A DNA stretch of 57,470 nucleotides from Psammoneis japonica (GCA_008632985.1 QPGO01000141.1:186001-243470), one strand, 5' to 3'; shown: positions 2,855 through 51,390, numbered from the stretch's first letter. Program-made: numbers and translations. Notes: a model not told the origin generated them from the sequence alone.

Positions 2855-3360
2855 TTAGATTGTCATTCACCGTGAATGCGTGCGCGGATCCGGGGTCGAA
2901 GTCACCCATTGACATTGTCCTCCCAAGCGCCAATTCCAACGATGTTTCTGTCGGCCGACAAGGACACGGAATGCCCGCCAACTTGCTTCCATTCATCCGC
3001 ATTTCTGTCATGCTGAAAGATTTGAACTTGACCTGCATTGACCAATCTGCTGACATCATGCAAACGACTTCTGACCACCAAGACATTTCCATTGCCAGTC
3101 AATGACACTGACCAACCAAAATCATCACCGGGCTGTTGTGTCAGGAGTGTTTGGCCACGTTGGCTCCATGTCAAAGTCGAGAGGTTGCAAGAATGAACCA
3201 AAACCTTTTTGTCATCGCTTCCACGTGTGCGGCCATGATCAAACTGCTGTCATCAAGGGAAACAGAGCATCCAAACAAACCATCAACAACTTGTCCACCA
3301 ACTGGATTGCCCCACAGGCTCCATTTTGACGAGGCAGAGTTGCACTCACACACCAACACT
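2855..3360 (-). pseudogene. FG-GAP family pseudogene (3' end), TA-mutated
   Basis: Colinear with the 3' ends of 16973-20458 and 53744-55390 (WSQRGQTLLTQQPGDDFGWSVSL, SAHAFTVNDN). Contains deletions, frameshifts and Tyr to His/Cys changes. Confidence 0.85.
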
Positions 3361-3833
3361 TAACACTCAGCATTTCCACCCAAGTCATTGCATGCTTGCA
3401 TTTGGGCACAAGAAAGTGCTGGTTTTTGACTCCTGTCATGCTGAGAGTGTCAGCTTCTGTGACACAGAGAGTGACAGAATGGAAAGAAGAGCTTTGTCAG
3501 AAGGCAGCAAAATGGCTGCACTTCCTTGTGCTTGCCTTTCCTTTGGTTGCTCAGTCTTTCAGATCATTGGCACTCTTTGGGGGTGCAATGGCATGCCCGA
3601 TGACCATCGAACCAGTCTTCTGAGCATTTGCAAGAAGACATCTCTAGAATTTTTCCACACACTTGTTGAGGAATCCAGCAACCCACCAAAATTGAACATC
3701 AACAAAAAAGCAAGCACTGCTCAAGAATCAAAAACATCTTTGTCTTTGCAATGAGTGGTGGAATGCGTGCTTTGAAGCAACAAGCCAATGGATGACATGT
3801 GGACATGTGACAGGGTTTCTGCATGCACTGCCA

Positions 3834-3971
3834 TTTGGAAACATTGTCAATGTGGCACCCGTGGTTGCTGTGATTTATTGTGCCATCTTGTTGGGGTGGA
3901 TGGGCTTGGCTCATCAATTGAGCAGTTTGTTTCATGCCAAGATGGAAATGAACAAGGCTGAAAAGCATCAG
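3834..3971 (+). pseudogene. Duplicated 3' fragment of the NTT transporter gene
   Basis: Ungapped 138-nt match to 53084-53221 (FGNIVNVAPVVAVI...EMNKAEKHQ vs FGNIINAAPVVAVI...EMNKAEKYQ). Confidence 0.95.
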
Positions 3972-4319
3972 AGTGGTGCTTTTTTAATGGATGCATGCCG
4001 TGTCTGCAAGTCAATTGTCACTCTGACCTCTGCTGCACTAAAATGCCAGGATCTTGTCAGCTGCTGGCATTCTCTAGAATGTGTCAAGGTCCACAACGAA
4101 CTGTGTCTCTCTGCATGGTGTCTCTCTGCATGATGTTCTAGTGTGGCAACTGTCTTGGAGCATTCCACAAAATCGATGAGAGCGGGGACCGACCTGAATC
4201 GACTTGACTGATGATGACAACCAACAATTGCTCAATCGTTGTAAATCATCATCTCAAAGGCGCCTCTGGTGCAGTGTGATTGACAAAAAAGCATCAAATG
4301 CGAACACAGCTCCAATTGT

Positions 4320-7282
4320 TTTTTGCTGTGAGAATGCACACGCGGATCCAGATTGCTCGCCATTGACATCAGTCCAAAATGCACCAACTCCAACGACACG
4401 TCCATCTGCCGACAAGGAAACGGAAAATCCAAAACAATCACCTACAGCCTCGCCATTCAAAGGACCGCCCAATTGACTCCATTTTTTGAGGATGGCGTCG
4501 CACTGAAAGATTCGAACTTGACCAGCGTCATTCAATCCATTGACGTCATGACAACCACTTCCGACCGCCAAGACATTTCCATTTCCACTCAACGATGCCG
4601 AGTCACCAAAATCATTGCCAGGCTGTTGCGTGAGTGGAGTTTGGCCACGTTGATTCCATGTTGAAGTTGATTGGTCGTACGCACAAACAAGAACCCTCTC
4701 ATTGCGTCCTGGTGCACCCACGGCCACGATCATGCCGCTGTCGTCAAGGGCAACAGAACATCCAAACCAACCACCAAAACTTGTCCATTGATTGGATCAC
4801 CTGATCGATCCCATCTCAACGATGCCGAAATGTTTTCACATGTGTGTGCTGACGTTTGACCAGCATCACTTCCACCCGAATCATTCCAATGTGCTCCAAC
4901 GCCAACAATTGTTCCCAATTGACTCAAAGAAACGGAAGTGCCAAAACGATCACCACTAGATTCACCAATGAGAGTCTCTCTGAGTTGATTCCAGGACGAA
5001 GCGTCACGGTCGCATTGAAACAAGCGAACAAACCCAGTCTTGTCACTGTCTTCCGTGTCATCACCCCACGCTGCCACGGCAAGAATGTCTCCTGCGTCCG
5101 AGAGAGACACGGAAAAACCAAATCAATCAAAATCGTCTTGTCCAAGAATGTCGCTGCCGAGTTGAACCCAGCAATCCGTTGCAGAGTTGCACTCAAACAC
5201 CCGAACGTGACCGGCGTCTATTCCGCCACTGTCATTTTCGTCGGCTCCAACAGCAAGGATCGCACCATCGCCATTCACTCGCCAAAACTGTCCCCGCATG
5301 CTTGTCCAACCAATTCTTGGCCAATTTGTGCCCATTGTTGGGTGTTTGAATTGCATCGATTCACAATGACATGTCCGGGATTGGAAGAAAATTGTTGATC
5401 CGCTCCAATGGCCATGACACTGCCATCACGAGACAAGGAGATAGAATCGCCAAAACGATCACTTGCAGCTTTGCCATGCAAGACTTGACCGATGGGATTC
5501 CACGTCCCATCTGGCAGCAAACCACCACCACCGCCAGCATTGGGTGTTGAAGCTGGTGTTGTTGGAGTGGGGTGTGGAGTTGGATTGAGTGCCGCATTTG
5601 TTGACACTTCACCAGCACCAGCCAAATTGTCAAAAACATCGCTTCCGCCATTTTCACCTGCCAACTGAAGGTCGTTCACATGGGCCAACCTCCTTGCAGA
5701 TGTCTTGAATGGCTCGGTCACTGTTGCTTCCATGGAAACGTCTTGACTGCTGCTGTCAAGAGCACATGCAACGGCTTGGTTGTACACGACTTGAAGGGAG
5801 GGTTCTCCACCACTGCCATTTTGAACCACAATGGCATTGGCAACTTGCAGCGCAGTCTCGACATCTTGCATGTTGGAAGCCTGTAAATTCCGGAGCACGA
5901 GACCGACTGGGCTGCGGCGACAACGACGAGCATTGCAACAGTCCTCAATGAATGCCTTGGTTCCCGTGGCCCACAACTTGGAATCGTTTTCGTCAAACTC
6001 AGCATCTAAACCAATCAAATTCATCATCAACCCAGAAGCTTCCTTGGTGGACGGAGTGGTGCCTGGCTCACCGCTGCCGCCGCCGCCACTGCTGCCACCA
6101 CCAGAAGAAGACACTCCAACAGCAACCCCAACAATCGCTGCAATGGTCAACACTGCAACCCCCAGGACAACAAATCGTTTGTGAAGGCACTTGCACTGAA
6201 GCACCTCCTCAGCATTCGCCTCTATAATTTGTGCCTGGGGAACTCCTGCTTTGAGATGAGCCACTCGTTCACGGAGAGCAGCGAGTTCCTCCGTTCCTTC
6301 TGCCAAGTGAGCTACAACAAGTGGGGTGTCACCTCTGTCCGTACGAGTGGACTCCTCTGGAGGAGTGGGGGTGGAATCGTCGGAACGCATCGTTTCAAGC
6401 ACTGACAAGAGCGAAAAATTGTCATCAGCGGTCCTTCTTCTTTGCACCTCTTGTCCTCCTTGACGGACGGCAAAGGCGCCGGCAGCCATCTGCACCTCCT
6501 GCATTGTCAGACGAGGAGTTTGGGACAAAAATGGCACCAGTTTCTTCTTCATCAGCATCTTCATCATCCGCATCAACGAGTTCTTCTTCTTGTTGTTTTT
6601 GTTCTTCAACGTTTTCTTCTGCTTGCTGCTGCTCTTGATGGTGGCGATGGGCAGTTTGTCGATTCTTCTTTTTCTTCTTGTTCTTGTGAAGAGAAGCGGC
6701 GGTTTCTCCTGCATTGTCGGATGAGGAGTTTGGGGCAAACCCAGCACCGGTGTCTTCTTCATCAGCATCTGCATCATCCGCATCAAAAGGTTTTTCTTCT
6801 TCTTTTTGTTCTTCAACCGCAAAGTTTTCGTCTGCTTGTTGCTGATCTTGACGTCGGCGATGGGCAGTTTATCGCTTCTTTGTTTTCTTCTTTTTCTTGC
6901 GTGGAGAAGCGGCGGTTTCTCCTGCATTGTTGGACGAGGAGTTTGGGGCAAACACAGCACAGTTGTCTTCTTCATCAGCATCTGCATCATCCGCATCAAC
7001 AAGTTTTTCTTCTTTTTCTTTTCGTTCTTCAACCGCAAAGGCTTCTTCTGCTTGTTGCTGCTCTTGACGGCGTCGATGGGCAGTTTTTCGCTTCTTCTTC
7101 TTCTTCTTCTTTTTCTTGTGAGAAGAAGCGGCAGTCGTTTCTCCCGCAGGAATTGTTTCTTCAAATTCTTGAAACTGCTTCTCCTTTTCGTCATCCTTCA
7201 AGTTGCCGCTCCTGCTGGCACTGCCGCGAACACCACGCCTGTTGCACATGTCATCATTGTCGTTGTCGTTGGAAAGGTTCAT
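4320..7282 (-). pseudogene. Near full-length TM/SEA-like/FG-GAP membrane protein pseudogene
   Basis: ORFs 6869-7759, 5275-7194, 5123-5356, 4730-5110 and 4254-4733 piece together the family architecture. Several frameshifts, and conserved Tyr are replaced by Cys/His (QCDRD, ECNSAT, NRCNSN). Confidence 0.9.
6496..7148. repeat. Three tandem ~210-213 bp units encoding Lys-rich/acidic segments of the pseudogene's cytoplasmic N-terminus
   Basis: cctgcattgt..ga.gaggagtttggg recurs at 6498, 6708 and 6921. The sister copies near 24 kb and 41.4 kb have only one unit. Confidence 0.9.
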
Positions 7283-7456
7283 CACGGGGGTGAGCAACTC
7301 TACAGCAAGAAAGATGCATGGACAAACCGTCAACCAACAGCCACAAGCAACACGAGTGAGAGGTTTGTGATCAGACAGATGACAGATGTGAGTTCTGAAG
7401 ACAAGCGCAACTTGAAGCACGAACGATGAACGCGGATGCGCACTCCCCAGCGTTCG

Positions 7457-9280
7457 GGCAATCGTCCAGCTGCGCAGGCAGCTCTTTATAAACTGTGCAG
7501 GAAATGTGCCAGGGTTTGTGTAGAATTTGACAATGACACAATTCCATTTTGACAGCGACAAGCAGAAACCCACATGGTTTTCCAGCACAAATTTGACAGC
7601 GACGCCACAGACGGAATCATTGTCAACGTGCCAATCACCGCATTGTTGTGGGTTTTCGATCACAGGGAATTCCTCATTTGGCGCTGAATTTCCAAGACAA
7701 GGAAATGCAAGAAAACAAGAAAAGGAAAAAATAATTAGTTGTTCAATGCGTGGTTGCAACCGTCATGAACCATTCATCTAGAAGTTGATTTGCACAGAGC
7801 CTGTGGCTGCCAAAACACCTCTTTTTGTGCAATGCACTCAATGAGTGAGGCAGACACCATTGGGAGGCACTTTCTCAAGGACAAAAAGATGTGCTTCCAT
7901 GTGGTCTCTTCAAATGCAATCTGCTCCAAGCAAGCCCACAAAAGCTCAAATTGGTGTGGCAAATCTGGCGCACATTGTGCAACAAAACAAAAGAGGAAAG
8001 CCTCTTTGTTTTCTTTGTTTAACAAGCCAATGAGGGGGAAATCAAGATGTGAGCATGAGCGGGGTTTTGGGTCATGGGGGGCTCCTTTCTCAACAGCCCC
8101 CAAATTTCCTCGGATGAAAGGAAAATTTCCCGCACTTGTTTGGTGCCAGTTGTGACCAACACAGTCCTTTCATCTTGCAGCCAATGTTGTGGTCCACTCA
8201 TCTCTGTTGGATGGCCAGCACAGAGCACAGCTGCTGCAGCACTTCAAGCAGCCCGCCACCATGTGGGGATCTTGGCGGCTGCTTGTCTCTTGTGCCGCAG
8301 ATGGCTCCTTTCCTTTTGCAATCATTTTTTCACACAGAGCTGGCAGAAATGCCATTTGACTGCAGTGGCACAGCTGCATGATGTGGCCCAATGCCAACAT
8401 CATGAGAGGAGGCCAGCACCCGCTGTGCTGGCGGTGGCTGGCTGGCTGGGCTGTGCCTCGCAGCTGGTCTTGCCAGCACAGCACCACAAACAAGCACATT
8501 TCCTTTGACACCAAACCACAGGAAAATGCGCTCTTGATTGCTTGTCTCTTGTGTTGCAGCAGGCAGATCCTTTCCTTTTGCACAGCCATTTTTCACAGAG
8601 AGCTGGCTGCTGGGTTGCCAAGCAACCTTGGCGCTGCTGCTCACAGGCACAGTGTGACAGCAGAACCTGACACCTGACTGCTGAAAGTCAGCCTTCAATC
8701 TGTCTAGTGCAAACTCAAATTGAAGTGCACAAGCTGTGAGAGCTGAGAGCCTGAGTCTTGTGGCAAAACCACGCAAAGGGCCTTTGCGTTTGCCCTGCTT
8801 GCTTGGGTTTTTTCCTGCTGTGCCTCTCTTTTCGCTGGCGCACTTGCCAAAGAGAAACAGCACAGCATGCTGATCATCAGCAATTTTGGCAGGAAAGGTT
8901 TGGCAGCAAAAACAGAACATTGGCTGTTGCTGTGCAAGTTGTGAAAATGTGCAGTCTGGGCAGCGGCACAGCTGCAGGAAGGAGCTTTTGTTGTTCATTT
9001 TTGGGTTTTCTCTTGTGTCTCTTGCAATTGACACACTTGTCACAGCAAAATGTGGATGTCATGCATTGACATTTTTGGCAGGAAAAGGTTTGGTGGCAAG
9101 ATCAAACATCGGTTGTTGCCGCATCATGGTTGGTTTGTTTTTGTCGCAGCAGCATGAATGTCGCAAAACGTCTGTCCATCGTACGTGCGAATTGAAAGCA
9201 TGGCGTTTTCTCCTCCCCTCCTCCTTTTCCTCTCTTTTTTTTCATAAACTCGGAGCCACCTACGTGACCGGACATGTGCC
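7457..9280. mobile_element. Non-autonomous or decayed DNA transposon, Merlin-like, 1.8 kb
   Basis: 8-bp target duplication AGCGTTCG (7449-7456, 9281-9288) and ~28-bp imperfect TIRs (GGCAATCGTCCAGCTGCGCAGGCAGCTC vs reverse complement of right end GGCACATGTCCGGTCACGTAGGTGGCTC). The empty site ccccAGCGTTCGggacaaag is present in the paralogous segment at ~24340. Confidence 0.85.
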
Positions 9281-9518
9281 AGCGTTCGGGACAAAGAAAA
9301 TGCTCAGCGCCATCCGCGAACGGACAAACACAATGATGATGTGTTTGCTTTTGTGTTTCTTCATGCCTTGCACTGCATGTTGTTCTGTCGCTGCATGTCA
9401 AGTGAACAAGCACCAAGCAGCGTGTGGTTGTCAGGAGCTTTTTCTCATCATTTTTCCACTGAGCTGCCAACAGATTGAATTCTCTTCACCAACAAGAACA
9501 GCAAGCGCACTCGATGAA

Positions 9519-9875
9519 GCTCTGCTGCATCTTGGCAGGCTGCTGGGCAAAGCTTGTGAGCTGTTGATGTGTGCCCGCCTCCACCCTTTGTGTTCTTGGG
9601 CAGATTTTTCTCAAAGAAAAAGTGGCAAGTTGCAAGGTGGCATTGATTGTCATGATTGCCACCCCAGCCTGGTTGAAATGTCTGCCCACTCTGCACCTTT
9701 CACAAGCTCGCTGACAACCACCCACATTTGGGCGGTTGAGGCATTGTCGACAAAAAACCCAGCTGCTGTGACACATTTCAACATTCACTGTCTCATTGAG
9801 TGTCACTCAACCCCGGTGTGTGGACACTCACATGTGCCAAAATGATCCGCAACAATTTGGAGAGACACCTTGGAC
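9519..9875 (+). pseudogene. PIG-B internal fragment copy 1
   Basis: Homologous to ~1463-1825 (ctcaaagaaaaagtggcaag..., HCLIECHSTPVCGHSHVPK vs HYLMGCHSTPAYSHLHVPK). Confidence 0.85.
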
Positions 9876-12444
9876 GTGAGTTTGGACCTGGTGTGTGTGG
9901 TGCATGCACGCTGCTGGCTTCTGAGAGAGCTCTGGCACACAACACATTGGGTGCTCCTGCTGCTCTCTGTTTGTTGAGCTTGCTGCCCTGTGCATTGCTG
10001 GAAGGAACAGAGTTTGGGTTTTTTCAAATTTCTCCCTCTGCCGCGCAAACACCACACACAACAGTCCAAAGCAGCGCTGCTGTCAATGACAAACAGATGC
10101 CAGCACACAAGCCCACACCACAAAAGCCTGCCACACATGCTTCTTCGCACACCCCTTTTTTGCAAAGCACCTGCTTTTTTGTGAGCCCTCCTGTTTTGGA
10201 GAGTCTGCAGAGAGCTTTGCTTCTCCTGCCTGTGAAAACACAGCTGCGCTGGGCTGGGCACTTTTTTGACACCTGAGGGGGGGGGCACCCTAGAAATGAA
10301 AACTTGGCTGTGGGTGCTCCAAGCAAGTCAACAACAAAACTGATTCTTTTTCTTCTGCTTGTGGTTGCTGGCTTGTCCGCTGTGCTTTGGGGGGAGTTCG
10401 GCCATGCACACAGGAGACAGCTTGTGTGAAGAGCTCTGCAGGCCCAATGTTGCGTGGAGACATGCCCAAGGTTGGCCAGAGCATGTCAACAGCAGCAGCT
10501 CAAATGGTGCATTTGAGCCCATGCTCAAACACTTTGACATGATCTCTCTGTGGATGTCGGTCAAACATTGAAAGATTTTGATGCCGTTGCATGTCCTCTG
10601 CAGATGCCACACAGAGAGCAGCAGCTGTGGCTGGCCCTGTGGCAGCTGCAGAGAGCTTGTCTTGAAGCAGTCAACAGAAGTGACAACTTTTGGTTTTTTT
10701 TGTGGCCAAAAGGGGAACATCACCAAAAACAACTGGCTGTGGTCATTTCAACAACTCATGCCCAGTTGAAGATTGTGGGCATGCACACGTGCGCTGAGCT
10801 GTTTGTGACCTTTTCTTTCAAAATGACTTCTCAATGTCCAAACATTGTCCCATGACATTTTTGCTTGTTCAAACTCCAGAGCCAATTTGTCCCCAAGTCA
10901 AGGGGGGCACTCAATTCCAGAGTGCCTCAATCTACAATCAGTTGACTCTAGATCCACACAACTCCGTGCATTCTCAATCTGGAGCTGTTTGATTCCAGAC
11001 GCCACACTCAAGAACTGTTTGATTCTGGATTGCCCCAATCTTGAGCTGCTCAATTCTGGATTGAAGTGACTGCTTTCATTTTCTTGCAAAGTGCAATTTG
11101 CCAAAAATGGAGGCACAAGCTTCCCTGACACAGAACAAAATGAAAAACATGCCAGACATTGTCAGCCCTCACAGGTGCAAGAAAAAGCACCAGCAGCATC
11201 AAGGGCAGCTCACCAGTTGCAACTGTGCATGGCACCAACATGTGCCAAGGATTTTGACAAAAGGCGCACAAACCCATTGACATCTGCTGCTGCTGCCGTC
11301 AATGTGCACTGCTTGCCGAAGTCTTCATCAAAAAATTCATCAACAACAGGCAGCTCACCCTTTTTCCCCTGGCCACACAGACACTGGGAAGTGTTTTTGA
11401 TGGGCGAGTCTCATCAACAAAGAGAGCTTGCTCTGGATGGCTCGCATGCCTTTTGCACACATCTCAAAAGCGCTGGGCCACTCATGCTCACATCTTTGTC
11501 ATGCTCGAACAGCCAGTTTTTCTGGAGAGCATGTCAAAGGCTGCAAATCCTTTGCTGAACTGCACTTGTGTGCCAAACTTTGCCAAGTTTGCATCTCATG
11601 CTGAGCTGGGTTTCATCAAGACATGGCAACGGCTTTTCCTCCAGCAAACCAGCAAAGACTTTGTCACAAGCAGATGAAAAGGTGGCTCTTTTGCCAACTC
11701 CTTGAAATCCATTTCTTCTCTTGACTGACCACACTCTCCTGCAAGTTTCTGACTGGTTTTCTCCAAATTTAAGGCAGTGAATAAACCAGCCACAAAACGT
11801 CCTGTGCAAAACATCCGATCGCAGGATTCCCATGTGGAGCACAGCTTCCCAACTTGTCGTCCATCACTGCTGGCACACAGGCATGGCAACAAAACACCCC
11901 TGAATTGCCAAGATCCATTGACTGTCTAGCTCAAACATGACAGATGGCTTTGCACACAAGCAAAAACAGATTCAGTGCAAATGGCTTGTGAGGCGGCACT
12001 TGTTGACGGCAGCAACAATTGATTTGTTTGCGTGCCATTTCTTTCAAGCCAACAAAATGGACACAAGTCCACACCTTTCTTTGTGATTGCTGCACCACTT
12101 TTTGCAAATGAAGAATCCTGTAAGACCGCGGATGATGGTTGCGGACGTACGATGGTGACTGTCGTTGGCAACGACGTCAGAGATGGCAAGTTGCTGTCTC
12201 ACTTGGTGCGATTCGGTGCACGACAAAAAAATTTTCTTTCGAACGCAGAGCCTGTGCGATTGATTCGCGGTTAGCGATTCGCGGTTCGCGATTGATTCGC
12301 GGTTCGCGGTGCACGACAAAAAACTTCTGTTCGAAGATAACAAAGATCTTGAATCTGTACATAATAATCACACTTCGATTCATTCGCACTTTCCCTGTTG
12401 AGTGACTGACACGAAGAGAGAGACCAATCGAGCTTCGACCGATC

Positions 12445-42381: not shown

Positions 42382-43255
42382 TGAGTTTGGACCTGATGTG
42401 TGCAATGCACGCTCACTGCCAGCTTCTGAGAGAGCTCTGGCACACAACACATGGGATGCTCCCACTGCTCTCTTTTTGCTGAACTTGCTGCCCTGTGCAT
42501 TCCAGGAAGCAACAGAATTGAGATTTTTTCAAATTTCTCCTTCTGCCAAAACACCACACACAGCAGTCCAAAGCGCCATCAACAACAATGAACAGATGCC
42601 AGTGCAAGCCACACCACAAAAGCTTGTCACATGTGCTTTTCTGTTGATGCCCCTCTTTTGCCAAGCACCTGCCTTTTTTGTGAGCCCTGTTTTGGAAAGT
42701 CTGCAGAGAGCTTGGTTTCTCCCATTTCTGAAAACACAGCTGGGCTGGGCACTTTGTCAATGCCTGGGGGAGGTGTCTGGACCTGCTGGAAATGAAAACT
42801 TGGCTTCGGGTGCTCCAAGCAAGTCAACAGCAAAATTGATTTTTTTCTTCTATTTGCACCCAGTGGCTTGTGTGCTGTGCAGCGGGGGCTGCTTTGCCAT
42901 GCACAGGAGACAGGGACCAATGTTGCATGGAGACATGCCAAGGCTGGCCAGAGCATGTCAACAGCAGCAGCTCAAATGGCATGTTTGAGCCATGCTCAAA
43001 CACTTTGACATGATCTCAGTGGATGTGGGACAAACATGGAAAGATTTTGATGCCATTGCATGTCCTCTGCAGATGCCACCACACAGAGAGCAGCAGCTTT
43101 GACAGGCATTGCAGCAGCTGCAAGGCCCATCTTGAAACAGTCAACAGAGGCAACAACCTTTTGGTCTTGTGGCCTGTGCAATGGAGCGATGCTCATGGCT
43201 GGTAGAAAGAACAAAATTGAAAGACAAGCAACAAAGCAACTATCGAAGCTACCCA

Positions 43256-46012
43256 TTAGTTGTTTACTGAGAATCCAAAAGCAGATCCTGAATCCACGCC
43301 ATTGCTGTTACGTCCATTCGACGCACCAACTCCAACAGTCTTTCCGTCTGACGACATGGACAATGACCACCCAAATTCATCTCCTTGAGCCTTGCCATTC
43401 AAAGGATCGCCCACCTGCTTCCATTCGTCGGTGTCACGGTCGTACTGAAAGATTCTAACTTGACCCGCATTAGTTATTCCATCTACGTCATGCTCTTTAC
43501 TTCCAACTGCCAACATATTTCCATTGCCACTCAACGATACCGAGTGTCCAAAATCATTACCTGGCTGTTGGGTCAGCAAAGGTTGCCCAAGTGATTTCCA
43601 TGCTGAAGATTCGTGATCATGGGAGTATACCAACACTCTTTCATTGCTTCGTGGTGCACCCACTGCCAGGATTGAGCCACTGTCATCAAGAGAAATCGAA
43701 TATCCAAACTCACCACGAACGACAGCTCCATCGATTGGATCACCGAATGGCTCCCATGAAGAAGATTTGTATTCATACACCAAGACCTGACCGGCATCCT
43801 CCCCCGCAGAATCATTTCTATATGCTCCAACGGCAACAATACTCCCTGAGCGATTCAAACAAACGGAGCGTCCAAATCCAGCATCGGCGGCTTGGCCGAC
43901 AAGTGTCTGTCCAAGCTGATTCCAACTTGAAGTACTAGGATTGTATTGAAATAACCGAACCGATCCAGAACGAAATGATCCCACGGCCAGAGTATCTCCC
44001 GCATCCGACAGAGAGACGGAAACACCAAATCGATCACCAGCCGCTTGTCCTTCAATTTTGTTTCCGTGCGGGTCCCATTGATCTGTGGAAACATTGTATC
44101 GAAACACTCGGACCATACCGGCATTGTGTCCACCGCTGTCGTTCTCATCGGCTCCAACCGCAAGAATCGTTCCGTCGCCATTTAACGACACGGACTCACC
44201 AAAATCGTCACCCCCCTTTTGTCCGAGTAATTCCTGGCCAGTACGGTTCCATGTTTTAGTGTCACGATTGTATCGATAGACCGACACGTAACCAAAAAAT
44301 ATCGAATTCGCCTGAGAGGCTCCCACTGCCATTACAGTTCCATCTCTCGACAACGAGACGGAATGACCAAACGAGTCTTTTGCCGCGTTACCATGCAAGA
44401 CTTGTCCCAAAGGCTGAAATGTAAGGTCTGGCAGAGGCCCAGGTGGCGTGGGAGACAGGGTAGAAGGTAATAACGTTGGCTCGAGCGTCGTGGGTGGCAT
44501 GGTTGGGGTTGGCAATGGAGTTGGTGTTGGAGAAGGCGTCGGAATTGGTGTCGGTGGACGTGTAGTAGGGGGCGGTGTCGAAGCAGTGGGAGAAGGAGTA
44601 GCGGGCGGTGTTGTTGGTATTGGCGTCGTTGGGCTTATCGTTGAGGGGCTCGTAGGAGGTGGAGTACTCAAGGTAGGAACAGGTGTTGGATTTGGCGTTG
44701 ACTTTTGCGTTGGTGCACTCGTCGTAGGGGATGGAGTGGCAGACGTAGGAACAGGAGTAGGGTTTGGCGTTGGCTTTTGCGTCGGTGAACTCGTCGTAGG
44801 GGTTGGCGTAGCAGTGGTTGAAACTGGAGATGGGTCTGGCGTTGGCATCGGCGTTGGTGATTCAGTAGTTGGAAGTGTAGGAGCAATGCTTGGTGTGGTA
44901 GATATCGAAGCAGACTGCGAAAGAGTTGGCTCTGGTGTGGGAGATGAATTTGGGCTCGAAGTTGGCGTTGGAGGCGGTGATTCAGGATTACTTGTCGGGG
45001 ACATTGTAGGCATTGCGCCGAGCGTCATGCTAACTGCAGTCAATCCATCAAAAATGACGTTTCCTGAAGCCTTACCAGTTTCTGTCAGGTCGTTTGCATA
45101 TGCATTTCTAGATACATCAGTCCTGAATGGCTCGGTCACCAAGCGGTCAATCGAAACGTCGTCGCCCTCGAAAGTATACGTAACAACTTGGCTGTAGGTG
45201 ACAAGCAAGGATGAGTCCGTGCCGTTATCACCAGCCTGTACAAGATCAGTATCAGTTACTTCCAATGTAATTTCAACGTCTTGAACATTGCTTATTTGTA
45301 GCAATCTCAGCAACCGACGTTGGCCACTGTTGTAAAAGCCCTCAACATATTTCTTGGTTGTAGTGGTCCATAGTTCCGTATCAGCTGCATCAAACTCTTT
45401 CGTTACACCATTCAAAGTCATTTCCAGTCCCGCTGTTTCTTTTGTTGTCCTGCTCTCGTTATTGCCACCGTCACCTCCACCACCGGTCACTGCAATAACA
45501 ATACCGACAATCGCTACAAGGAGCACTGCTGCTGCTATTCCTAGACAAAGGCGGCGCTTAGAGCGAGGCTGAGTCGTCTCCTCTTCTTGTTCCTCCGCGT
45601 TATGATGGTAATAACTAAAGAGAGACTTGAGTGAACTAGGTACACGAAACATAATGTTTCGCTCATCATCATCATCGGTCTCATCCTCAACGCGTGTCGT
45701 ATTTACGGGTTCTGCCACTTGTGTTTCCACCAACAAGGGAGGAACTGCTACCTGACGTAAATGTCGAATTTCTTCTTCAAGTCGAGCAGCCTCCTCATCC
45801 GTTACTTGAGCAAGCTCTGCTTGAACCACAAAAGCGCCTTGTCCATTGCTGGGCGTGCTGGAGGATGGTTCCGAAAAGAATGTAACATTGTCGGGATCTT
45901 GTCCTGCTCTTGGAATAGCTTGTCCGTGTTGAATGGCAAACGCACCAGCGACCGGACCTTCCGGGTCCCATGCCAGTTGTTCTTGTTGCTCTTGTTGTTT
46001 CTCTCGTCTCAT
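43256..46012 (-). CDS. Type II membrane protein with SEA-like domain, long Pro/Thr mucin-like stalk and FG-GAP beta-propeller (~918 aa), intact
   Basis: Intact ORF with [33 protein letters not shown], a ~190-aa PT stalk and six to seven FG-GAP-like blades. Tyr are retained. The start could lie slightly upstream. Confidence 0.9.
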
Positions 46013-46907
46013 TATTTCTTCTTGAGCGTTTCTTGTTGCTTCTTGTTTTTCCTATGCTTCTCTCTGCGCTTCTTGAGTTACTGTACAATGACACTTGTTT
46101 GTCAGTGATTTGTGGATGGAACGTCACACGCGGCAGTGTATCGTTTTCATTTTGGAGAGAAAGAATAAGCGCTTTCCGCGACATCAGTTCCATGACCCAG
46201 ATTCGCGTTTCAAAAAATGAGAACGCCATCAAATCACTTGACAACCTGACGGACAAACATGTGATGCCGACACGTCAGCAGCGACGATACCGCGGTTCGC
46301 AACGCGTTTCATTGCCGCAGGGTTGGCGTGTATCGAAACTGTTCATGGTGAAAGCTGCAACATTGGGCATTGCTATTGCTGCACTGCCGCTATCGTTGGT
46401 TGTTGTTTCGTCATGGTTGATGGTACAGTGTGTGTGTGTCGTGTATGTCGGAGGGAGTTTTCACGCGTTTCGAAAATTCCAACGGTCGGTGCGCGCGTCA
46501 CGCGCAACTCCGCACGAACCCAACTTGAACTTCCACGTGTAAATCTTTCGTCGCTTTTGAGAACGTCCGCGAGGGTTGCGTCGTTCATCACTGTCTTGTC
46601 GCCACCAAACTTGCAATCCACAGTCCACCACCATCAATCGGGCCTTGCAAAAAATGAATGTTTGCAAAAACAGTGATGAGACAAATGTGTGTCAAGCTGA
46701 CACTGTTCTTTTGCAGCACAACTCGAAACACCTGATTTCAAGGCCATGTTTTCAGCCGACGTGCAAAGATTGGCAACAACACATTTGGTTCTCTTGAGGG
46801 CTGAAGAAAGAGGCTTGCTTTGTCCATGGTGCTGTGGGAATGTGAGCACAGATTAGATCTGGCCATTTGCATGCTGGACACATGGATCGAAGCGTTTGCA
46901 GAGGTCT

Positions 46908-47297
46908 GACGCGTTCCAGCCCCAGGTGGGACTCCGTGTGACATTGGGCCCGTAGAATTCTACGTGCGAGCTCCGTAGTACGAGAATTTAATTAATGGAT
47001 ATATTCATCTTTAACATCAAATAAACGGCCAAGTTTGTGGTGCAATTATGCCTCTTACCACTCGACGTTTTTGCAAATGCACCTGCCCTACGCGATTCTT
47101 AAGACATTATAGAATCGCGCTGTAACAAAAAATGTCAAAAGTTGTTGGACGGATCGCTCAATAAGTGTACCGTAAAATGACACAAAATATCAAAAAAATC
47201 ACGTAGAAATCTACGTGCGCGACATACGACGTGATTCAAAAAACTATCGATGTCACAGTTCAGCAGTGCGAGGTCCCACCTAGACCTGGAACGCGTC
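46908..47297. mobile_element. MITE (390 bp, 25-bp TIRs, 4-bp TSD GTCT), TA-intact copy
   Basis: GACGCGTTCCAGCCCCAGGTGGGAC...GTCCCACCTAGACCTGGAACGCGTC with GTCT at 46904-46907 and 47298-47301. Internal palindromes at 46951-46964 and 47200-47217. Confidence 0.88.
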
Positions 47298-48399
47298 GTC
47301 TGGCGCATTTGTCGAGATGTGTGGACAGGTTTTTTTTAATGGTGCTCTTTCTCAAGAAGGAAAACTGGCTGATGCCAATGCTTGGCAATTGCAGACAGTG
47401 CTTCACAGACTGCCATTGCAAGAGCAGGGGCAATCTTGCTGAGGCTGCTCAAAATCACCCGACATGTTGCGTGTGCAGCTGGGAATCCGTGTGACGACAC
47501 ATTGGGCCCGCAGAATTCCACGTGCAAGCTCAGCAGTGAGGTTGTTGAGCAATGAATGTGTCATTGATGACCAATGGAAAAAGAGGCAATTTGCAAATGT
47601 GCAAACTTGCCCATGACAATTAAAGCACAGCACAGCTTGCTCAGCCGGGTGGATTCTTTTCAGATTTTGAAGAGTGCAGCCCCTGGTGCCGCGTTGTTGT
47701 TCCCAAAAATTTGTTCTCAAACAAAACATCTGGGGCTTTGCAAAGTGGCAAGTTTGGAACATTTCTGTGAGAGAGCATTTGCAGAAATGCACATGTGAAG
47801 CCAACGATCACTTCTTCTACAGCCCAACACTGTGCAGGGCAATCAGATCACACAGCATGTCAGTGAGCGGGACAGACTGCCAGAAGGTTGTGCTGCCAAG
47901 GAGGGGGGGACTTTTCAAAAACCGAGCAAGTGGGTCATGGCTCACCCAAAAATCAATGAACCCACAGAAAGAAATGATGATGATCAAACCCCATCTTGGG
48001 TGCATCATCATTTTTCAGAAGAAGGGGACAAGAGCTGAAGGATTCCACTGCCGACTTGGAGGACACACATCAGTGTTCAAGTTTGATTTAAGTCACCAGC
48101 TGCACCAAGGACCTGTTCCATTGAAACTGGAAAACCGATGGCTACATTTTGGCCATGCAGCATCCTGTGCCGGGGCCCTGTCTCGACAAGTTAACCAACA
48201 GAGATGCTCCTTGACATCAAGTCGAGTGTGTCAGTTCAAAACCCTTTAGATGCCGGTGTGGAGCATCTCTCCGAGGCGTCTTGCAACCAGCTGGCAAAAA
48301 GCCCGCAGAGGGCTGGGACTAACTGGCAATTGTTGAGTTGATTGATTGATTGCAAGAACGGGGGCAACTTAAATGTAAAACATTGCAACCAAGAAACTC

Positions 48400-50769
48400 A
48401 ATGTGTGTTTGCTCCGAACAAATGTGCGGATCCTGAAGACCTGCCATTGACATCACGATGCTGCGCACCAACCCCAAGGACACTTCCATCTGCCGAGACA
48501 GACACGGAACATCCAAAATTGTCAAATTGAGATTCACCATTCAAAGGATCACCAACCTGCAGCCATTTGGTGGTGTTGGCGTCGCACTGAAAGATTCTGA
48601 CTTGACCCTTGTTGCTTGTTCCATTTGCGTCATTCTCTTTGCTTCCAACAGCCAAAATGTTTCCATTGCCACTCAACGACACCGAGGAACCAAACTCATC
48701 CCCTGGCTGAAATGAAAATGGAGTTTGACCATGTTGATTCCATGCGGACGAAGCATGGTCAAACTCACAAACAAGCACTTGGAAACTCAAGGGTGCTCCA
48801 ACTGCGAGCACCAAACCACTGTCATCAAGAGACACTGACCCACCAAAATGACCGTTCTCGAATTGGCCTTTGATTGGATCGCCCAATGGATTCCACCTTG
48901 ACGATCCAGAACTGCGTTCAAACAATGAAACCTGGCCAGCGTCTCTTTCGCCTGCATCATTGCGAACAGATCCAACTCCAACTGTGGTTCCCGAACTGCT
49001 TGGGGAGACCGAGAAACCAAAATCATCTCGAGCACCCTCACCTGTCAGCGTCTGTCCAAGTTGGCTCCAGAATTGTACGTCACTGTTGCACCGAAACATT
49101 CGAGCCAATCCTGAATCAACTTGATTTAAACCGTCCATGTCATTGCACCACGTTCCGACTGCAAGAGTGTCCCCCACATCCGAGAGATCCACAGAATGCC
49201 CAAAACGACCTCCCGCTGCTTGTCCTTCAATGTCAACCCTAGTTGAATCCAACGGTCAGTGGTGGAGTTGTGTTCAAAAACTCGAACACGACCAGGATCA
49301 TCTTCGGCATCATTGTCACAGGCTCCGACCGCCAACACCGTGCCGTCGCCATTCAACAACACGGACTTGCCAAAGTTTTCCCCGGCAGCCTGCCCAACCA
49401 ATTCTTGACCCACGCTCGTCCATTCTTGTGCATCTTGATTGCATTGATGGATGGACACATGTCCAGGATTGGAAGTGAATTCTTGAGACGCTCCCACTGC
49501 CATGATGGCACCATCTCGAGACAAGGAGACGGAATCAGCAAACACATCAAATGCAGCTTTGCCATGCAGCACTTCACCTGACCCTTGAAATGCAACGTTT
49601 GGTGGAAACGCAATGAAAGGAGTGGGAGAAGGAGTGCTGAGTGTGGGAGGTAGAGCAGGCGTTCGCGTTGACAGGCTTGTGACATTGCCCAGTTGCACTC
49701 CAGTCAACCCATCAAAAATGTCGTTCCCTGCGGTTAGACCCGCCTCTTGAAGGTCACTTGCACACTTCGATCGTAAAGCGGACGTCTTGAATGGCTCTGT
49801 CACCAACCTTTCGATCGAAACATCGGTGTCCTGAAAAGTGCATGAAATGAATTGGCTGCACGTAACGAGCAAAGACAACTCAGCGCTGTTGTCACCAATT
49901 TGCATGAGATTTGCATCTGACACCTCTAATGTAGTTTGGACATTGCGGATCTCGATGACTTGCAAAGATTGCAACAAGCGTCGGCGGCGACTGTCACAGA
50001 AACTCTCGATGTGTTTCTTGGTGGCAAACGACCACAGTTCAGCATCAGCTGCTTCGAAGCCTCTGTCTAAGCCGTCCATGCTCAGGGCCAATCCGGTTGC
50101 TTCTTTGGTGGATAATTCGTCCCCACCGTCTCCGCCACCGCCACCACCCCCGAACGTCACCCCAGCTACAATTCCCAAAACTGATGCCAAAAGCCCAACG
50201 CCCCATGTTACGAATCACTTGCGACGGGAAATCGTTTGATTGGAGCCATCTGCAGCGCTCGACTTTGTCTCTTCAGCTTGGGTTCTGTCGTTTGGTGCGG
50301 GTTCAGCGACTTGCGCCTGAGCCAGAGGAACCGACTGCCGAAGAAGTCGGTTTTCTTCTTGGAGTCGAGCCGCTTCCTTGTCTGTCACTTGAGCGACCTG
50401 AGCATGAATGAGCAAGGCGCTTTGTTGATCGCGAGTGGGAGCTGGAAGAGTGGTGTTGGATCCAGACGACGTCTCAGACATGAGACTGACACTGTTGGCA
50501 TTGTCATTTGGTCCTGCTCTCGGGACAACTCCGTCGCAATTTACGGCATGAGCACCAGCAACTGGCGTTGTTGGGTTTGGTGCAGGCTGAGCAGCATCTG
50601 CAATGTCTTCCTTTGCGTCTGGTGCAGATTCTTCCCCATGCGTTTCAACCTCATGTTTTTCCTCTTCATCTTGTTCGTTGTTGTTGTTGTTGCTGCTGCG
50701 GTGATGGCCTCGCCTTCTATCCGTGGTGCCGTGCCACTTGGTCGGAAGCTTGGTTTTGGAACGGTTCAT
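48400..50769 (-). pseudogene. TM/SEA-like/FG-GAP family pseudogene, TA-mutated
   Basis: ORFs 50215-50919, 49126-50190 and 48398-49252 joined by frameshifts. Tyr are replaced (ESFCDS, LVTCSQ, HQCNQ, FEHNS, QCDAN). Confidence 0.9.
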
Positions 50770-51390
50770 GACTGAGAGATGATGACAAAACAGCCCGTGA
50801 TGCAAAAATGTGGAGTCAAGAGTCAATGAACGCAGCTTTTGGACTCTTTTGGGACTCCTGTAAGAATTAGGCGTGACTGAGAGATCACGAACGGGAACGC
50901 GACAAGTGTCATGCTTCATCGCGCGAGCCGTTGCTGCAATTCATCAACGCCGGCATTTCATGATGAGGGTTGACACGCCCCAAAACGATTTGTGGTGAAA
51001 GCTGCAAAACGGGGCTGTGCTGTTACTGCTCCTTCTCGTCGGTTGTTTTAGTCATGGTGCTGAATCGTGCTGATGAGTGTGTGTTGTGGAGGGAGTTTTC
51101 ACGCATTTCGAAATTCCGCCAAACGATCTTTACGCGCTTCGTGCGCGACAAAACTTCAACATCTGGCCGTCAGTCGTCTTCCCGCGCTTTTTTGTGTTGG
51201 ATGGTTTCGCGCGGGCGGCGCGCGTCATCGCTCATCGCTCATCCATCTCACAAAACCAAAACATCATCATCCATCAGCCATCATCACTTTGCGCTTCATT
51301 ATACTCTGCTTGTTATACCCCTCCTTCTATTATCACACCACACTTATTGCAATCCTCATATAATACAAGGCCGTCTTTATTGCATGTCGA

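What the first reader, a model, noticed from the sequence alone, without database searches (positions are those of the whole stretch)
2880..50900. Repeat- and pseudogene-targeted TpA to TpG/CpA hypermutation (a 'reverse RIP'): candidate undescribed genome-defence system
Seen: the blocks ~2880-12100, 14900-16950, 20700-25300, 28180-32300, 32900-43200 and 47300-50900 are strongly depleted of TA. I count about 10 TA in 33100-37600, whereas intact genes have several per 100 nt. Intact paralogs in the window give the direction of change. In the NTT copy (3834-3971 vs 53084-53221), 7 of 8 TA became TG or CA and 5 of 6 CG became TG/CA, with few other changes. Conserved Tyr become Cys or His in every decayed FG-GAP and PIG-B copy. 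Established: 5mC deamination explains CG to TG/CA but not TA loss, and fungal RIP creates TA (CA to TA), the opposite direction. Inference: an enzyme converts A:T to G:C at TpA on both strands of silenced or repeated DNA. Candidates are a TadA/ADAT-like DNA adenine deaminase, or a modified A/T base repaired mutagenically. I know of no described system with this signature.
Basis: partly seen in the sequence, partly recalled or inferred. Interest (0 to 1): 0.97.

Follow-up and report, generated by a model that had tools for sequence, protein, structure and literature searches.

The report
TpA-erasing hypermutation in a diatom
In this diatom chromosome piece, silent decayed gene copies and repeats have had nearly every TA step turned into TG or CA while neighbouring working genes are untouched, a targeted mutation process so far reported only once, in an unrelated alga.

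Summary
Six sharply bounded blocks (34,106 of 57,470 nt) have TA observed/expected 0.07, against 0.56 in the rest of the window. TG and CA rise to 1.71 in the blocks. Intact paralogues in the window give the direction of change. Of 159 TA sites in intact copies, 116 are TG or CA in decayed copies and 8 are still TA. Two young decayed copies resolve the same TA to opposite products, so the hits came after their duplication. From that pair, TpA mutates about 177 times faster per base than background and about 5 times faster than CpG. Intact genes keep TA even at synonymous codon junctions, so they are spared by targeting and not by selection. One block boundary lies inside a single pseudogene. 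Surviving TA sites are almost all YTAR; ATAT and ATAC are nearly extinct. The window belongs to a diatom. My searches found nothing for diatoms. The enzyme is unknown; adenine deamination is an inference.

The parts
2857..12337 (.). TA-poor block A. It holds decayed FG-GAP copies (2836-3389, 4270-5589), an NTT fragment (3834-3971), a PIG-B fragment (9520-9875), a 213-bp tandem repeat and anonymous DNA.
   Evidence: TA 42, o/e 0.07; CG o/e 0.55. Homology and frameshifts from tblastn. Logan contigs identical.
15021..16967 (.). TA-poor block B. It starts inside the decayed FG-GAP copy 14620-15305, contains a mutated MITE-like element (about 15990-16420), and ends 6 nt before the stop codon of the kinase/FG-GAP gene.
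   Evidence: TA 10, o/e 0.07; CG 0.41. Boundary inside the pseudogene. MITE comparison.
20621..25298 (.). TA-poor block C, a decayed unit (FG-GAP gene copy plus PIG-B fragment). It is 95% identical to part of block E.
   Evidence: TA 19, o/e 0.06. C versus E comparison.
28166..31884 (.). TA-poor block D. It begins 30 nt before a 411-bp direct repeat (28199-28609 / 30195-30600) that covers the 5' end of the long ORF 26348-28390.
   Evidence: TA 29, o/e 0.11; CG 0.29. Repeat alignment with CA/TG opposite doublets.
32884..43202 (.). TA-poor block E. It has 4.8 kb of anonymous DNA that is the most depleted part (10 TA and 20 CG in 33100-37600), followed by the paralogue of block C.
   Evidence: TA 32, o/e 0.05; CG 0.28. 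No Pfam hit in its ORFs.
47338..51299 (.). TA-poor block F, a decayed FG-GAP gene copy (48380-50577) that has kept most of its CpG.
   Evidence: TA 29, o/e 0.12; CG 0.74. tblastn.
16973..20458 (-). Intact protein kinase + FG-GAP gene, TA-normal. It serves as reference for the ancestral state.
   Evidence: Pfam Pkinase 1.7e-38, FG-GAP_2 2.5e-28. TA o/e 0.55.
43256..46012 (-). Intact FG-GAP gene, TA-normal. Its 3' 470 nt are 88-90% identical to the mutated copies 21012-21479 and 37693-38160.
51977..53224 (+). Intact main exon of the plastid-type nucleotide transporter (NTT/TLC), TA-normal, 70-79% identical to diatom NTTs.
   Evidence: Pfam TLC 2.7e-114. Homologues.
53744..55390 (-). Intact FG-GAP gene, TA-normal. 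It is the parent-like copy for 4270-5589 and 2836-3389.
822..2252 (+). Intact PIG-B/Alg9-like mannosyltransferase exon, TA-normal. It is the parent-like copy for the fragments at 9520-9875, 24570-24925 and 42028-42369.
   Evidence: Pfam Glyco_transf_22 8.4e-46..
46900..47337 (-). TA-normal copy of the MITE-like element. Its end coincides with the boundary of block F.
   Evidence: all 7 TA sites in its conserved ends are TG/CA in the copy inside block B.

Best explanation
The blocks record a DNA-level, locally targeted hypermutation that turns TpA into TpG or CpA, that is, A:T to G:C on either strand. It acts on silent DNA of a diatom nuclear chromosome: decayed segmental duplicates of host genes, a MITE-like transposon copy and anonymous repeats. 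It leaves adjacent working genes untouched.

Shown here:
- The direction of change and its TpA specificity.
- Symmetry between the two strands.
- A rate roughly 120-270 times background per base and 3-7 times that of CpG decay.
- Boundaries sharper than 50 nt.
- A flank effect: RTAY sites are erased fastest and YTAR sites slowest.
- Independence from CpG decay.

Inferred:
- Targeting follows a silent chromatin domain rather than repeat homology.
- The chemistry is enzymatic deamination of adenine to hypoxanthine in DNA, which is then copied as G. A TadA/ADAT2-type enzyme is the favoured candidate because its natural substrate has U 5' of the edited A (recalled, not from a call).

This is the same signature that was measured de novo in Bigelowiella natans. 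I give about 0.9 to the process as a real mutation pattern, about 0.5 to adenine deamination as its chemistry, and about 0.6 to domain rather than homology targeting. The overall confidence of 0.7 weights the shown part most.
For: Direction. In 13 intact-to-decayed alignments (not independent of each other), 159 TA sites give 66 TG, 50 CA, 8 TA and 35 other. At sites where three intact copies agree, 6 transitions fall on about 6.5 TA sites in each of two decayed copies, against 0-3 in the controls.

Timing. Copies 20980-21530 and 37665-38215 resolve the same TA of the intact copy to opposite products at 6 sites. In 4,115 aligned nt of blocks C and E (95.2% identical) there are 37 TG-versus-CA opposite pairs, 21 TA-versus-TG/CA, 64 CG-versus-TG/CA, and only 16 other transitions and 15 transversions. 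This gives TpA 177x (120-270) and CpG 35x (23-55) background per base.

Specificity. ApT outside TpA is not depleted (VATB o/e 1.48 vs 1.29). GC content is nearly equal (0.484 vs 0.475).

Symmetry. TG and CA o/e are both 1.71. The order of TG and CA outcomes shows no strand runs (22 runs vs 19.1 in shuffles).

Genes are spared. TA o/e at codon phase 3-1 in the intact genes is 0.56 (203 sites), although T-to-C there would be synonymous.

Domain targeting.
- The intact copy 43181-43651 is unmutated although two 88-90% identical copies are mutated.
- A MITE-like copy in a block has lost 7 of 7 TA that the copy outside the blocks keeps.
- TA and CG drop together inside the pseudogene 14620-15305.

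Flank effect. Among the 161 surviving TA there are 0 ATAT and 1 ATAC (7.5% and 17.7% of TA in normal DNA), while CTAA, TTAA and CTAG are enriched about 3-fold (chi-square p = 3e-20).

Precedent. In B. natans mutation-accumulation lines, 230 of 231 single-nucleotide mutations in the two hypermutable regions were A-to-G or T-to-C and all of these fell on TpA; the paper also reports TpA-depleted, CpA+TpG-enriched clusters (preprint Results).
Against: No enzyme, DNA modification or chromatin state could be examined, because no genome is held.

Three block boundaries coincide with junctions of duplicated segments (28166/28196, 43168/43202, 47325/47337), and the hits in C and E post-date their duplication. 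A homology-triggered, RIP-like mode is therefore not excluded.

The flank preference is only partly reproduced in polarised data. At mixed sites the TAY strand is hit 31 times and the other strand 16 times (p = 0.04), but this splits as YTAY 23:5 and RTAR 8:11. Strand choice favours TAC (56 of 87) but not TAT (32 of 74). The survivor analysis also assumes that the blocks once had the TA contexts seen in today's mostly coding normal DNA.

A three-category fit of TA loss in C and E shows rate heterogeneity (6 TA/TA pairs observed, about 3 expected).

0.6 Mb around NTT relatives in environmental contigs shows no such blocks (1 of 2,274 windows), so I found no evidence that the process is general in diatoms. 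Those contigs are gene-rich and poor in repeats.
Confidence: 0.7

Rival explanations
1. Same mutational outcome, different chemistry. A TET/JBP-type dioxygenase oxidises thymine at TpA in silent chromatin to 5-hydroxymethyl- or 5-formyl-uracil. This base mispairs with G at replication or is repaired mutagenically, giving T-to-C on either strand.
For: T-to-C at TpA cannot be told from A-to-G on the other strand, and the outcomes are symmetric. The palindromic RTAY preference fits recognition of a duplex site as well as it fits a single-strand deaminase. That 5-formyluracil pairs with G, and that modified T sits in TpA in dinoflagellates and trypanosome telomeres, is recalled and comes from no call.
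Against: No such enzyme or base could be looked for. The only experimental report proposes deamination, also without proof. The 3'-C bias of strand choice (56 of 87) resembles the TadA UAC substrate (recalled).
Confidence: 0.15
2. A homology-dependent, RIP-like process. Duplication itself triggers the TpA mutation of the duplicated segments, and intact copies survive only because hit alleles are removed by selection.
For: Most annotated block content is duplicated within the window. C and E were hit after they duplicated. Three boundaries sit at junctions of repeated segments. Diatoms carry DNMT4 genes related to fungal RID, of unknown function (PMC9998398, passages).
Against: The intact copy 43181-43651 is untouched although it is 88-90% identical over 470 nt to two mutated copies. 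One boundary lies inside a single pseudogene. The same MITE family is mutated in one place and not in another. The hypermutable giant-virus (NCLDV) insert of B. natans is single copy. 4.8 kb of block E has no repeat partner in the window.
Confidence: 0.2
3. Not hypermutation but a slow repair or conversion bias, either GC-biased gene conversion or an over-zealous T:G mismatch repair like bacterial very-short-patch repair, acting for a long time on neutral DNA.
For: Very-short-patch repair is thought to deplete CTAG in E. coli (recalled). Pseudogenes are neutral and could accumulate any bias.
Against: The rate is 120-270x background, with about 81% of TA lost while background divergence is about 0.5% per copy. 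GC content is unchanged and A:T to G:C is not raised at ApT. CTAG is among the best survivors (14 of 161, against 2.8% of TA in normal DNA). The left part of the pseudogene 14620-15305 is decayed yet keeps TA.
Confidence: 0.04
4. Artefact or RNA-level origin. The options are base-calling or polishing errors at a modified base, or ADAR-type editing of double-stranded RNA fixed through reverse transcription.
For: Modified bases can cause systematic miscalls on some platforms (recalled). ADAR prefers U 5' of the edited A (preprint Discussion).
Against: Contigs rebuilt by Logan from a run's reads match 6,357 nt of the blocks with 0 differences at full depth. The decayed copies also carry frameshifts and fixed, copy-specific outcomes. 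The copies share non-coding flanks and lie in segmental order, so they are DNA duplicates and not retrocopies. There are no strand-coordinated runs.
Confidence: 0.03

Closest known systems
TpA-specific hypermutation of integrated giant-virus (NCLDV) and virophage DNA in Bigelowiella natans (Mettrop et al., bioRxiv 10.64898/2026.01.13.699255; abstract, Results and Discussion read)
   Same: Transitions are almost exclusively at TpA, to TpG or CpA depending on strand. The process is confined to discrete regions beside a normal genome. It leaves a long-term footprint of TpA loss with CpA+TpG gain in clusters. The rate is orders of magnitude above background. The target is silent or foreign-looking DNA.
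   Different: The host is a diatom (stramenopile) and not a chlorarachniophyte (rhizarian). The targets here are mainly decayed duplicates of host genes plus a MITE-like element, with no recognisable viral gene (0 of 78 ORFs). Depletion here is near saturation (o/e 0.05-0.12, against 0.45 for their NCLDV region). CpG decay co-occurs but can be separated. A flank preference (RTAY over YTAR) is seen here and is not mentioned in the text I read ('flanking' 0 hits). De novo events are not observed here.
Fungal repeat-induced point mutation (RIP)
   Same: Hypermutation by transitions at one dinucleotide, confined to non-functional or repeated DNA, with sharp borders and effective inactivation of genes.
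   Different: The direction is opposite: RIP turns CpA into TpA and makes DNA AT-rich, whereas here TpA is destroyed and GC content is unchanged. Homology dependence is not shown here, and one highly similar copy is spared.
5-methylcytosine deamination at CpG in methylated repeats (diatom repeats are methylated: PMC9998398, passages)
   Same: The products are the same (TG and CA), and it operates in parts of the same blocks (CG o/e 0.28-0.74 by block).
   Different: It cannot remove TA. About 10 of the TA-poor 500-nt windows keep CG o/e of 0.8 or more, and TpA decays about 5 times faster than CpG.
A-to-I editing by ADAR/ADAT-family deaminases (RNA), including fungal sexual-stage mRNA editing (recalled)
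   Same: A is read as G, with a preference for U/T 5' of the edited base.
   Different: Those enzymes act on RNA. Here the change is fixed in both DNA strands of chromosomal duplicates, with no strand clustering.

Membership tests
TpA hypermutation as described in Bigelowiella natans | Mutations are almost only A-to-G / T-to-C, and they fall on TpA | tested here: met
   116 of 159 polarised TA sites are TG/CA and 8 are kept. ApT outside TpA is not depleted. In C versus E, 122 of about 161 difference events are at TA/CG/TG/CA steps.
TpA hypermutation as described in Bigelowiella natans | Confined to discrete regions within an otherwise normal nuclear genome | tested here: met
   Six blocks with boundaries under 50 nt wide. 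Intact genes keep TA at synonymous codon junctions.
TpA hypermutation as described in Bigelowiella natans | Long-term footprint: TpA depletion coupled to CpA+TpG enrichment in clusters of windows | tested here: met
   TA o/e 0.07 with TG and CA at 1.71. 119 of 228 windows meet the criterion.
TpA hypermutation as described in Bigelowiella natans | De novo rate about 1000 times the genomic rate, seen in only some lines | not testable with these tools
   Only an indirect long-term ratio could be obtained: 177x (120-270) per base from one paralogue pair.
TpA hypermutation as described in Bigelowiella natans | Targets are integrated viral or other foreign sequences | tested here: not met
   The identifiable targets are host FG-GAP, PIG-B and NTT copies and a MITE-like element. 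No viral or transposon Pfam domain appears in 78 ORFs of the blocks. About half of the block DNA is anonymous, so a foreign origin of that part is open.
Fungal RIP | C-to-T at CpA (or another CpN) in duplicated DNA, raising TpA and AT content | tested here: not met
   TpA is lost, CpA is gained and GC content is unchanged. C-to-T at CpA occurs at 1 of 72 and 2 of 71 conserved sites in the decayed copies.
Fungal RIP | All copies above a homology threshold are hit | tested here: not met
   The intact copy 43181-43651 is unmutated next to two mutated copies of 88-90% identity.
ADAR-type hyperediting fixed by retrocopying | Strand-coordinated clusters of A-to-G in copies made through RNA | tested here: not met
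   No runs (22 vs 19.1 expected). TG equals CA. The copies share non-coding flanks and segmental order.
Very-short-patch-repair type bias | Preferential loss of CTAG-type sites | tested here: not met
   CTAG is about 3-fold enriched among the surviving TA.
TadA/ADAT2-family deaminase as the agent | A deaminase gene that acts on DNA at T-A-(Y) | not testable with these tools
   No genome is held. The only signal is the sequence preference: TAC is favoured in strand choice, 56 of 87. The UAC substrate of TadA is recalled.

The most novel reading that the evidence does not exclude
Diatoms carry a chromatin-domain-directed enzyme that edits double-stranded DNA at the palindromic step R-T-A-Y. It would be a natural DNA adenine deaminase or a thymine oxidase. 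It works independently of cytosine methylation and permanently erases TA from silenced DNA, and with TA it erases TAA/TAG stops, Tyr codons and TATA-like elements. Its presence in both a stramenopile and a rhizarian would make it an old genome-defence arm of the SAR supergroup (stramenopiles, alveolates, rhizarians), and a source of natural duplex-DNA A-to-G editors.
Probability: 0.35. Interest if true: 0.92.

Novelty: new member of a known kind. Interest (0 to 1): 0.78.

Why it matters
Until 2026, eukaryotic genome defence by point mutation meant cytosine deamination, as in RIP, APOBEC and 5mC decay. A process that removes TpA by A:T-to-G:C changes is known from one preprint on one alga, with no mechanism.

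This window adds four things:
- The same signature occurs at saturation in a diatom, a distant and ecologically dominant lineage that can be transformed and edited in the laboratory.
- It can hit the host's own duplicated genes, not only viral inserts.
- It is separable from CpG methylation decay.
- It has an extended site preference that can be tested in vitro.

It also has practical consequences. TA-poor DNA has few stop codons and yields long false ORFs. Homology searches fail on it. Divergence-based dating of such copies will be badly wrong. If the agent is a natural duplex-DNA adenine deaminase, it would interest base-editing work.

Tried and rejected
- Whole-genome tests (sliding TA map, deaminase and TET/JBP search) were not possible: no genome is held.
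- Earlier notes of this scan: nothing for this genome. Word searches returned nothing or only phage dinucleotide cases and unrelated items. None was used.
- Sequencing runs: no RNA holder is listed. Run X2 laid mostly on intact genes and left several TA-poor bins without cover, and X3 laid nothing. Parts without cover are not evidence, so I draw nothing on expression from them. Summed contig depth was not used as copy number.
- Pfam on 78 stop-to-stop ORFs of 110 aa or more, nearly all from the blocks: only FG-GAP, PIG-B and TLC remnants and four sub-threshold hits. No reverse transcriptase, integrase, transposase or viral domain. Heavy mutation may hide them.
- Search for the signature elsewhere: 80 metagenome loci around NTT relatives show it in 1 of 2,274 windows. 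This is a useful null for chance but a weak test of distribution.
- ApT as a second target (raised) was rejected, because VATB is not depleted.
- Strand-processive editing was rejected by the runs test.
- The FG-GAP homologue search gave no taxon signal beyond two diatom hits at 42% identity.
- The protein atlas gave only bacterial TLC clusters for the NTT, and it was closed for the unknown protein 12445-14016.
- No tRNA and no Rfam family in the window.
- Literature: apart from the B. natans preprint, no paper in the held library describes TpA-to-TpG/CpA hypermutation, and none concerns diatoms. Subscription journals are not covered, and the preprint's supplements are closed.

Full report

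Per 500 nt, TA observed/expected (o/e) is 0.00-0.2 across long stretches and 0.4-0.8 elsewhere. A two-state hidden Markov model on TA positions gives six TA-poor blocks: 2857-12337, 15021-16967, 20621-25298, 28166-31884, 32884-43202 and 47338-51299.

Pooled figures:

| | TA-poor blocks | Rest of window |
|---|---|---|
| Length (nt) | 34,106 | 23,364 |
| TA count | 161 | 904 |
| TA o/e | 0.07 | 0.56 |
| TG and CA o/e | 1.71 each | 1.23-1.24 |
| CG o/e | 0.45 | 1.00 |
| AT o/e | 0.83 | 1.00 |
| GC-dinucleotide o/e | 1.23 | 0.99 |
| G+C content | 0.484 | 0.475 |

- There are exactly 10 TA in 33100-37600.
- In the NTT pair, 7 of 8 TA and 5 of 6 CG are changed to TG/CA.
- Of 65 Tyr codons in intact copies, 26 align to Cys triplets, 13 to His and 3 to Tyr in decayed copies.

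As a yardstick for chance, 119 of 228 overlapping 500-nt windows here have TA o/e <0.2 with mean TG/CA o/e >1.45. Only 1 of 2,274 such windows does in 598,602 nt of environmental contigs around NTT relatives.

**2. Is it an artefact?**

Contigs that Logan built from the reads of run X1 lie on 2500-3516, 3490-5163, 5412-6823, 10751-11594 and 14627-16036 with 0 differing letters at word depth 32-37. That run may be the sample the window came from, and only contigs, not raw reads, were on offer. This therefore excludes an artefact of the window's own assembly or polishing, but it is not an independent isolate.

The decayed copies also carry frameshifts. The FG-GAP copy at 4270-6066, for example, is read in three frames. 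They show fixed, copy-specific outcomes as well. A miscalled modified base would not give either.

**3. What organism, and what lies in the window?**

The TA-normal parts hold intact, nearly intron-free genes:
- a PIG-B/Alg9-like mannosyltransferase (822-2252);
- an unknown 523-aa protein (12445-14016);
- a protein kinase with FG-GAP repeats (16973-20458, minus strand);
- a long ORF with weak Crinkler and kinase hits (26348-28390, minus strand);
- two FG-GAP proteins (43256-46012 and 53744-55390, minus strand);
- a TLC-type nucleotide transporter (51977-53224).

The transporter is 70-79% identical to NTTs of named diatoms (Amphora, Cylindrotheca, Seminavis, Nitzschia, Fistulifera, Pseudo-nitzschia and others). 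The window is therefore diatom nuclear DNA. It is not Bigelowiella.

The TA-poor blocks contain decayed paralogues of these same genes, arranged as repeated segmental units. They also hold a 213-bp tandem repeat, a MITE-like element and several kilobases with no recognisable content. Of 78 stop-to-stop ORFs, nearly all from the blocks, none has a transposon or viral Pfam domain.

**4. Direction and specificity**

In 13 alignments of an intact copy with a decayed copy, 159 TA sites of the intact copy correspond to TG 66, CA 50, TA 8 and other 35. Of 332 CG sites, 117 are kept and 145 are TG/CA. These alignments are not independent: some references are reused and some decayed copies share ancestry.

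I then restricted the count to positions where three intact FG-GAP copies agree. Each of two decayed copies shows 6 transitions on about 6.5 TA sites. The three intact lineages show 0, 2 and 3 on 7-10.5 sites. C-to-T at CpA is 1 of 72 and 2 of 71.

The clearest case is the triplet of 43150-43700 (intact), 20980-21530 and 37665-38215. At six TA sites of the intact copy, one decayed copy has CA and the other has TG. TA was therefore ancestral and each copy was hit on its own.

A:T-to-G:C is not raised in general. ApT outside TpA (VATB) has o/e 1.48 in the blocks against 1.29 outside, so the loss of AT and the gain of GC dinucleotides are by-products of TAY-to-TGY and RTA-to-RCA.

**5. Rate**

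Blocks C and E share 4,115 aligned nt at 95.2% identity. Their pyrimidine-purine steps compare as follows:

| Step in C versus step in E | Count |
|---|---|
| CG / CG | 82 |
| CG versus TG or CA | 64 |
| TA / TA | 6 |
| TA versus TG or CA | 21 |
| TG versus CA | 37 |

All other differences are 16 transitions, 15 transversions and 8 odd doublets.

I treated each lineage as independent and subtracted the roughly 6 opposite pairs expected from CpG. On that model about 88 TA existed at the time of duplication, and 81% (72-88%) have since been lost in each copy. For CG the loss is 28% (22-35%).

Per base, this makes TpA 177 (120-270) times and CpG 35 (23-55) times the background rate. TpA decays 5.1 (3.3-7.5) times faster than CpG. 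The fit shows some rate heterogeneity among TA sites, which section 7 explains in part.

Other genomic copies seen in run X1 differ from the window by TG-to-CA doublets at 7264, 8185, 10640 and 10658. At 21136-21137 they have TA and CG where the window has TG and TG.

**6. What is targeted?**

Intact genes are not merely protected by selection on protein sequence. At codon phase 3-1, where T-to-C is always synonymous, TA o/e is 0.56 (203 sites), the same as at the other phases. The genes are simply not exposed.

Boundaries are abrupt. TA occurs every 10 nt or so up to 32883 and then not until 33078. None occurs from 47338 to 47620. The pattern is similar at 2856, 16968 and 51300.

Evidence for targeting by domain rather than by homology:
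- (a) The intact copy 43181-43651 is unmutated although it is 88-90% identical over about 470 nt to two mutated copies.
- (b) A MITE-like element with terminal inverted repeats has one copy inside block B and one in TA-normal DNA at about 46900-47325. All 7 TA in the conserved ends of the latter are TG/CA in the former.
- (c) The decayed FG-GAP copy 14620-15305 straddles a boundary. Its left 401 nt have TA o/e 0.40 and CG 0.76. Its right 285 nt have TA 0 and CG 0.11.
- (d) In B. natans the hypermutable giant-virus (NCLDV) insert is single copy.

Evidence for a role of duplication:
- Most identifiable content of the blocks is duplicated.
- C and E were hit after they duplicated.
- Three boundaries sit within 15-35 nt of segment junctions (28166 vs 28196; 43168-43181 vs 43202; about 47325 vs 47337).

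I consider domain targeting more likely (about 0.6), but it is not settled.

**7. Anatomy of the site**

TG and CA outcomes are equal overall (66 vs 50; o/e 1.71 each). Their order along a copy is random: 22 runs against 19.1 in shuffles. Both strands are therefore hit equally and site by site. This argues against a transcription-coupled, replication-strand or RNA-borne process.

The 161 surviving TA are strongly biased in their flanks:

| Site | Surviving TA in blocks (of 161) | Share of TA in normal DNA |
|---|---|---|
| ATAT | 0 | 7.5% |
| ATAC/GTAT | 1 | 17.7% |
| GTAC | 6 | 6.6% |
| CTAA/TTAG | 34 | 7.2% |
| TTAA | 24 | 5.1% |
| CTAG | 14 | 2.8% |

The chi-square test on 3' neighbours gives p = 3e-20. 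As trinucleotides, the ratio of blocks to normal DNA is 0.04 for TAT, 0.08 for TAC, 0.21 for TAG and 0.21 for TAA. GCA/TGC shows the largest gain, at 1.74-fold. RTAY sites are thus erased fastest and YTAR sites slowest.

Polarised data agree only in part:
- The strand whose A is followed by C is hit in 56 of 87 cases, against 60 of 145 for the other three bases (Fisher p = 0.001).
- At mixed sites the TAY strand is hit 31 times and the other strand 16 times (p = 0.04). This splits unevenly, YTAY 23:5 and RTAR 8:11.

The survivor analysis also assumes that the blocks began with TA contexts like those of today's mostly coding normal DNA.

**8. Relation to CpG decay**

CG o/e varies within the blocks from about 0.0 to 1.0. 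About 10 TA-poor 500-nt windows keep CG at 0.8 or more, for example 4501-5500, 40501-41000 and 49001-51000. The decayed copy 4270-5589 keeps 46 of 83 CG, close to the 52 of 83 kept between two intact copies, but it keeps only 1 of 30 TA.

The two processes therefore overlap in space but are separable. CpG decay is the expected result of cytosine methylation of diatom repeats. Loss of DNMT5a depletes methylation and de-represses young transposons in Phaeodactylum (PMC9998398, passages read).

**9. Mechanism**

Shown: a DNA-level, strand-symmetric, TpA-specific transition process, fast relative to background and confined to silent DNA.

Inferred: adenine deamination to hypoxanthine, which is then copied as G. 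The 5'-T requirement matches the U33-A34 substrate of TadA/ADAT2, and the 3'-C bias matches the UAC loop of bacterial TadA. Both points are recalled and were not tested. The B. natans authors propose an ADAT2 homologue on similar grounds and without proof.

A thymine route (oxidation at TpA to a base that pairs with G) gives the same products and fits the palindromic preference. Repair or conversion biases are too slow and have the wrong specificity. ADAR-type RNA editing is contradicted by the strand data and by the DNA-level origin of the copies.

**10. Comparison and novelty**

The closest known system is the TpA hypermutation measured in Bigelowiella natans mutation-accumulation lines. There, 231 of 302 nuclear mutations lay in two integrated viral regions, at about 6e-7 per site per generation. 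Of those 231, 230 were A-to-G or T-to-C, all of them on TpA. The paper also reports 124 TpA-poor, CpA+TpG-rich clusters.

Six literature searches found no other report and none for diatoms. The preprint's text does not contain 'diatom', 'CpG' or 'flanking'.

What is new here:
- the lineage (a diatom);
- host gene duplicates as targets;
- near-saturation of the depletion;
- separability from CpG decay;
- the RTAY-over-YTAR preference;
- a boundary inside a pseudogene.

I file it as a new member of a very recently described kind whose mechanism is unknown.

**11. Verdict**

Interest is 0.78.

Noticed in passing
window 15990-16420 and 46900-47325 (inverted): A MITE-like element of about 430 nt with terminal inverted repeats beginning GACGCGTTCCAG and a variable middle. 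The bin 15840-16506 had by far the largest summed contig depth in run X1 (80,914, against about 35-60 for neighbouring bins), so the family is probably very abundant in that run. Summed depth is not a copy number.
   Followed up: partly
window 31885-32883: A 1-kb TA-normal, AT-richer island (G+C 0.41, TA o/e 0.61, CG 1.04) lies between two TA-poor blocks. It is flanked by a 220-bp direct repeat (31186-31405 / 32849-33066) and holds a 152-aa ORF (32292-32747, minus strand) without a Pfam hit. It could be a young insertion or a small live gene.
   Followed up: partly
window 28166-28390: The first roughly 75 codons of the long ORF 26348-28390 (TTG start) lie in TA-poor, duplicated DNA; 64 of these codons recur at 30195-30386 with 97% amino-acid identity. 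The real start of this Crinkler/kinase-like gene is probably further downstream.
   Followed up: no
window 313-894 / 819-2249 and 51364-51828 / 51926-53221: The PIG-B and NTT genes are each split over two frames, with Pfam profile positions continuing across the gap. This implies one short intron each. The other genes are uninterrupted ORFs of up to 1,161 codons.
   Followed up: no
window 12421-14329: Contigs of runs X1 and X2 differ from the window at 11-22 positions per kb in the unknown gene 12445-14016. This looks like a second allele or strain, while the TA-poor contigs laid were identical to the window.
   Followed up: no
window, all TA-poor blocks: Because TAA and TAG are nearly absent, all six frames carry long spurious ORFs (up to 639 aa at 5275-7194). 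Gene finders would over-call genes here.
   Followed up: partly
13 intact-to-decayed alignments: CpG decay products are unequal (CA 88, TG 57) while TpA products are not (TG 66, CA 50). This may be a strand bias of CpG deamination relative to the old gene orientation, or an effect of changes in the intact references.
   Followed up: no
window 6496-7132: A 213-bp unit repeated 3.0 times (85% matches) inside the upstream part of a decayed FG-GAP gene copy. The paralogous regions of blocks C and E align to it once each.
   Followed up: no
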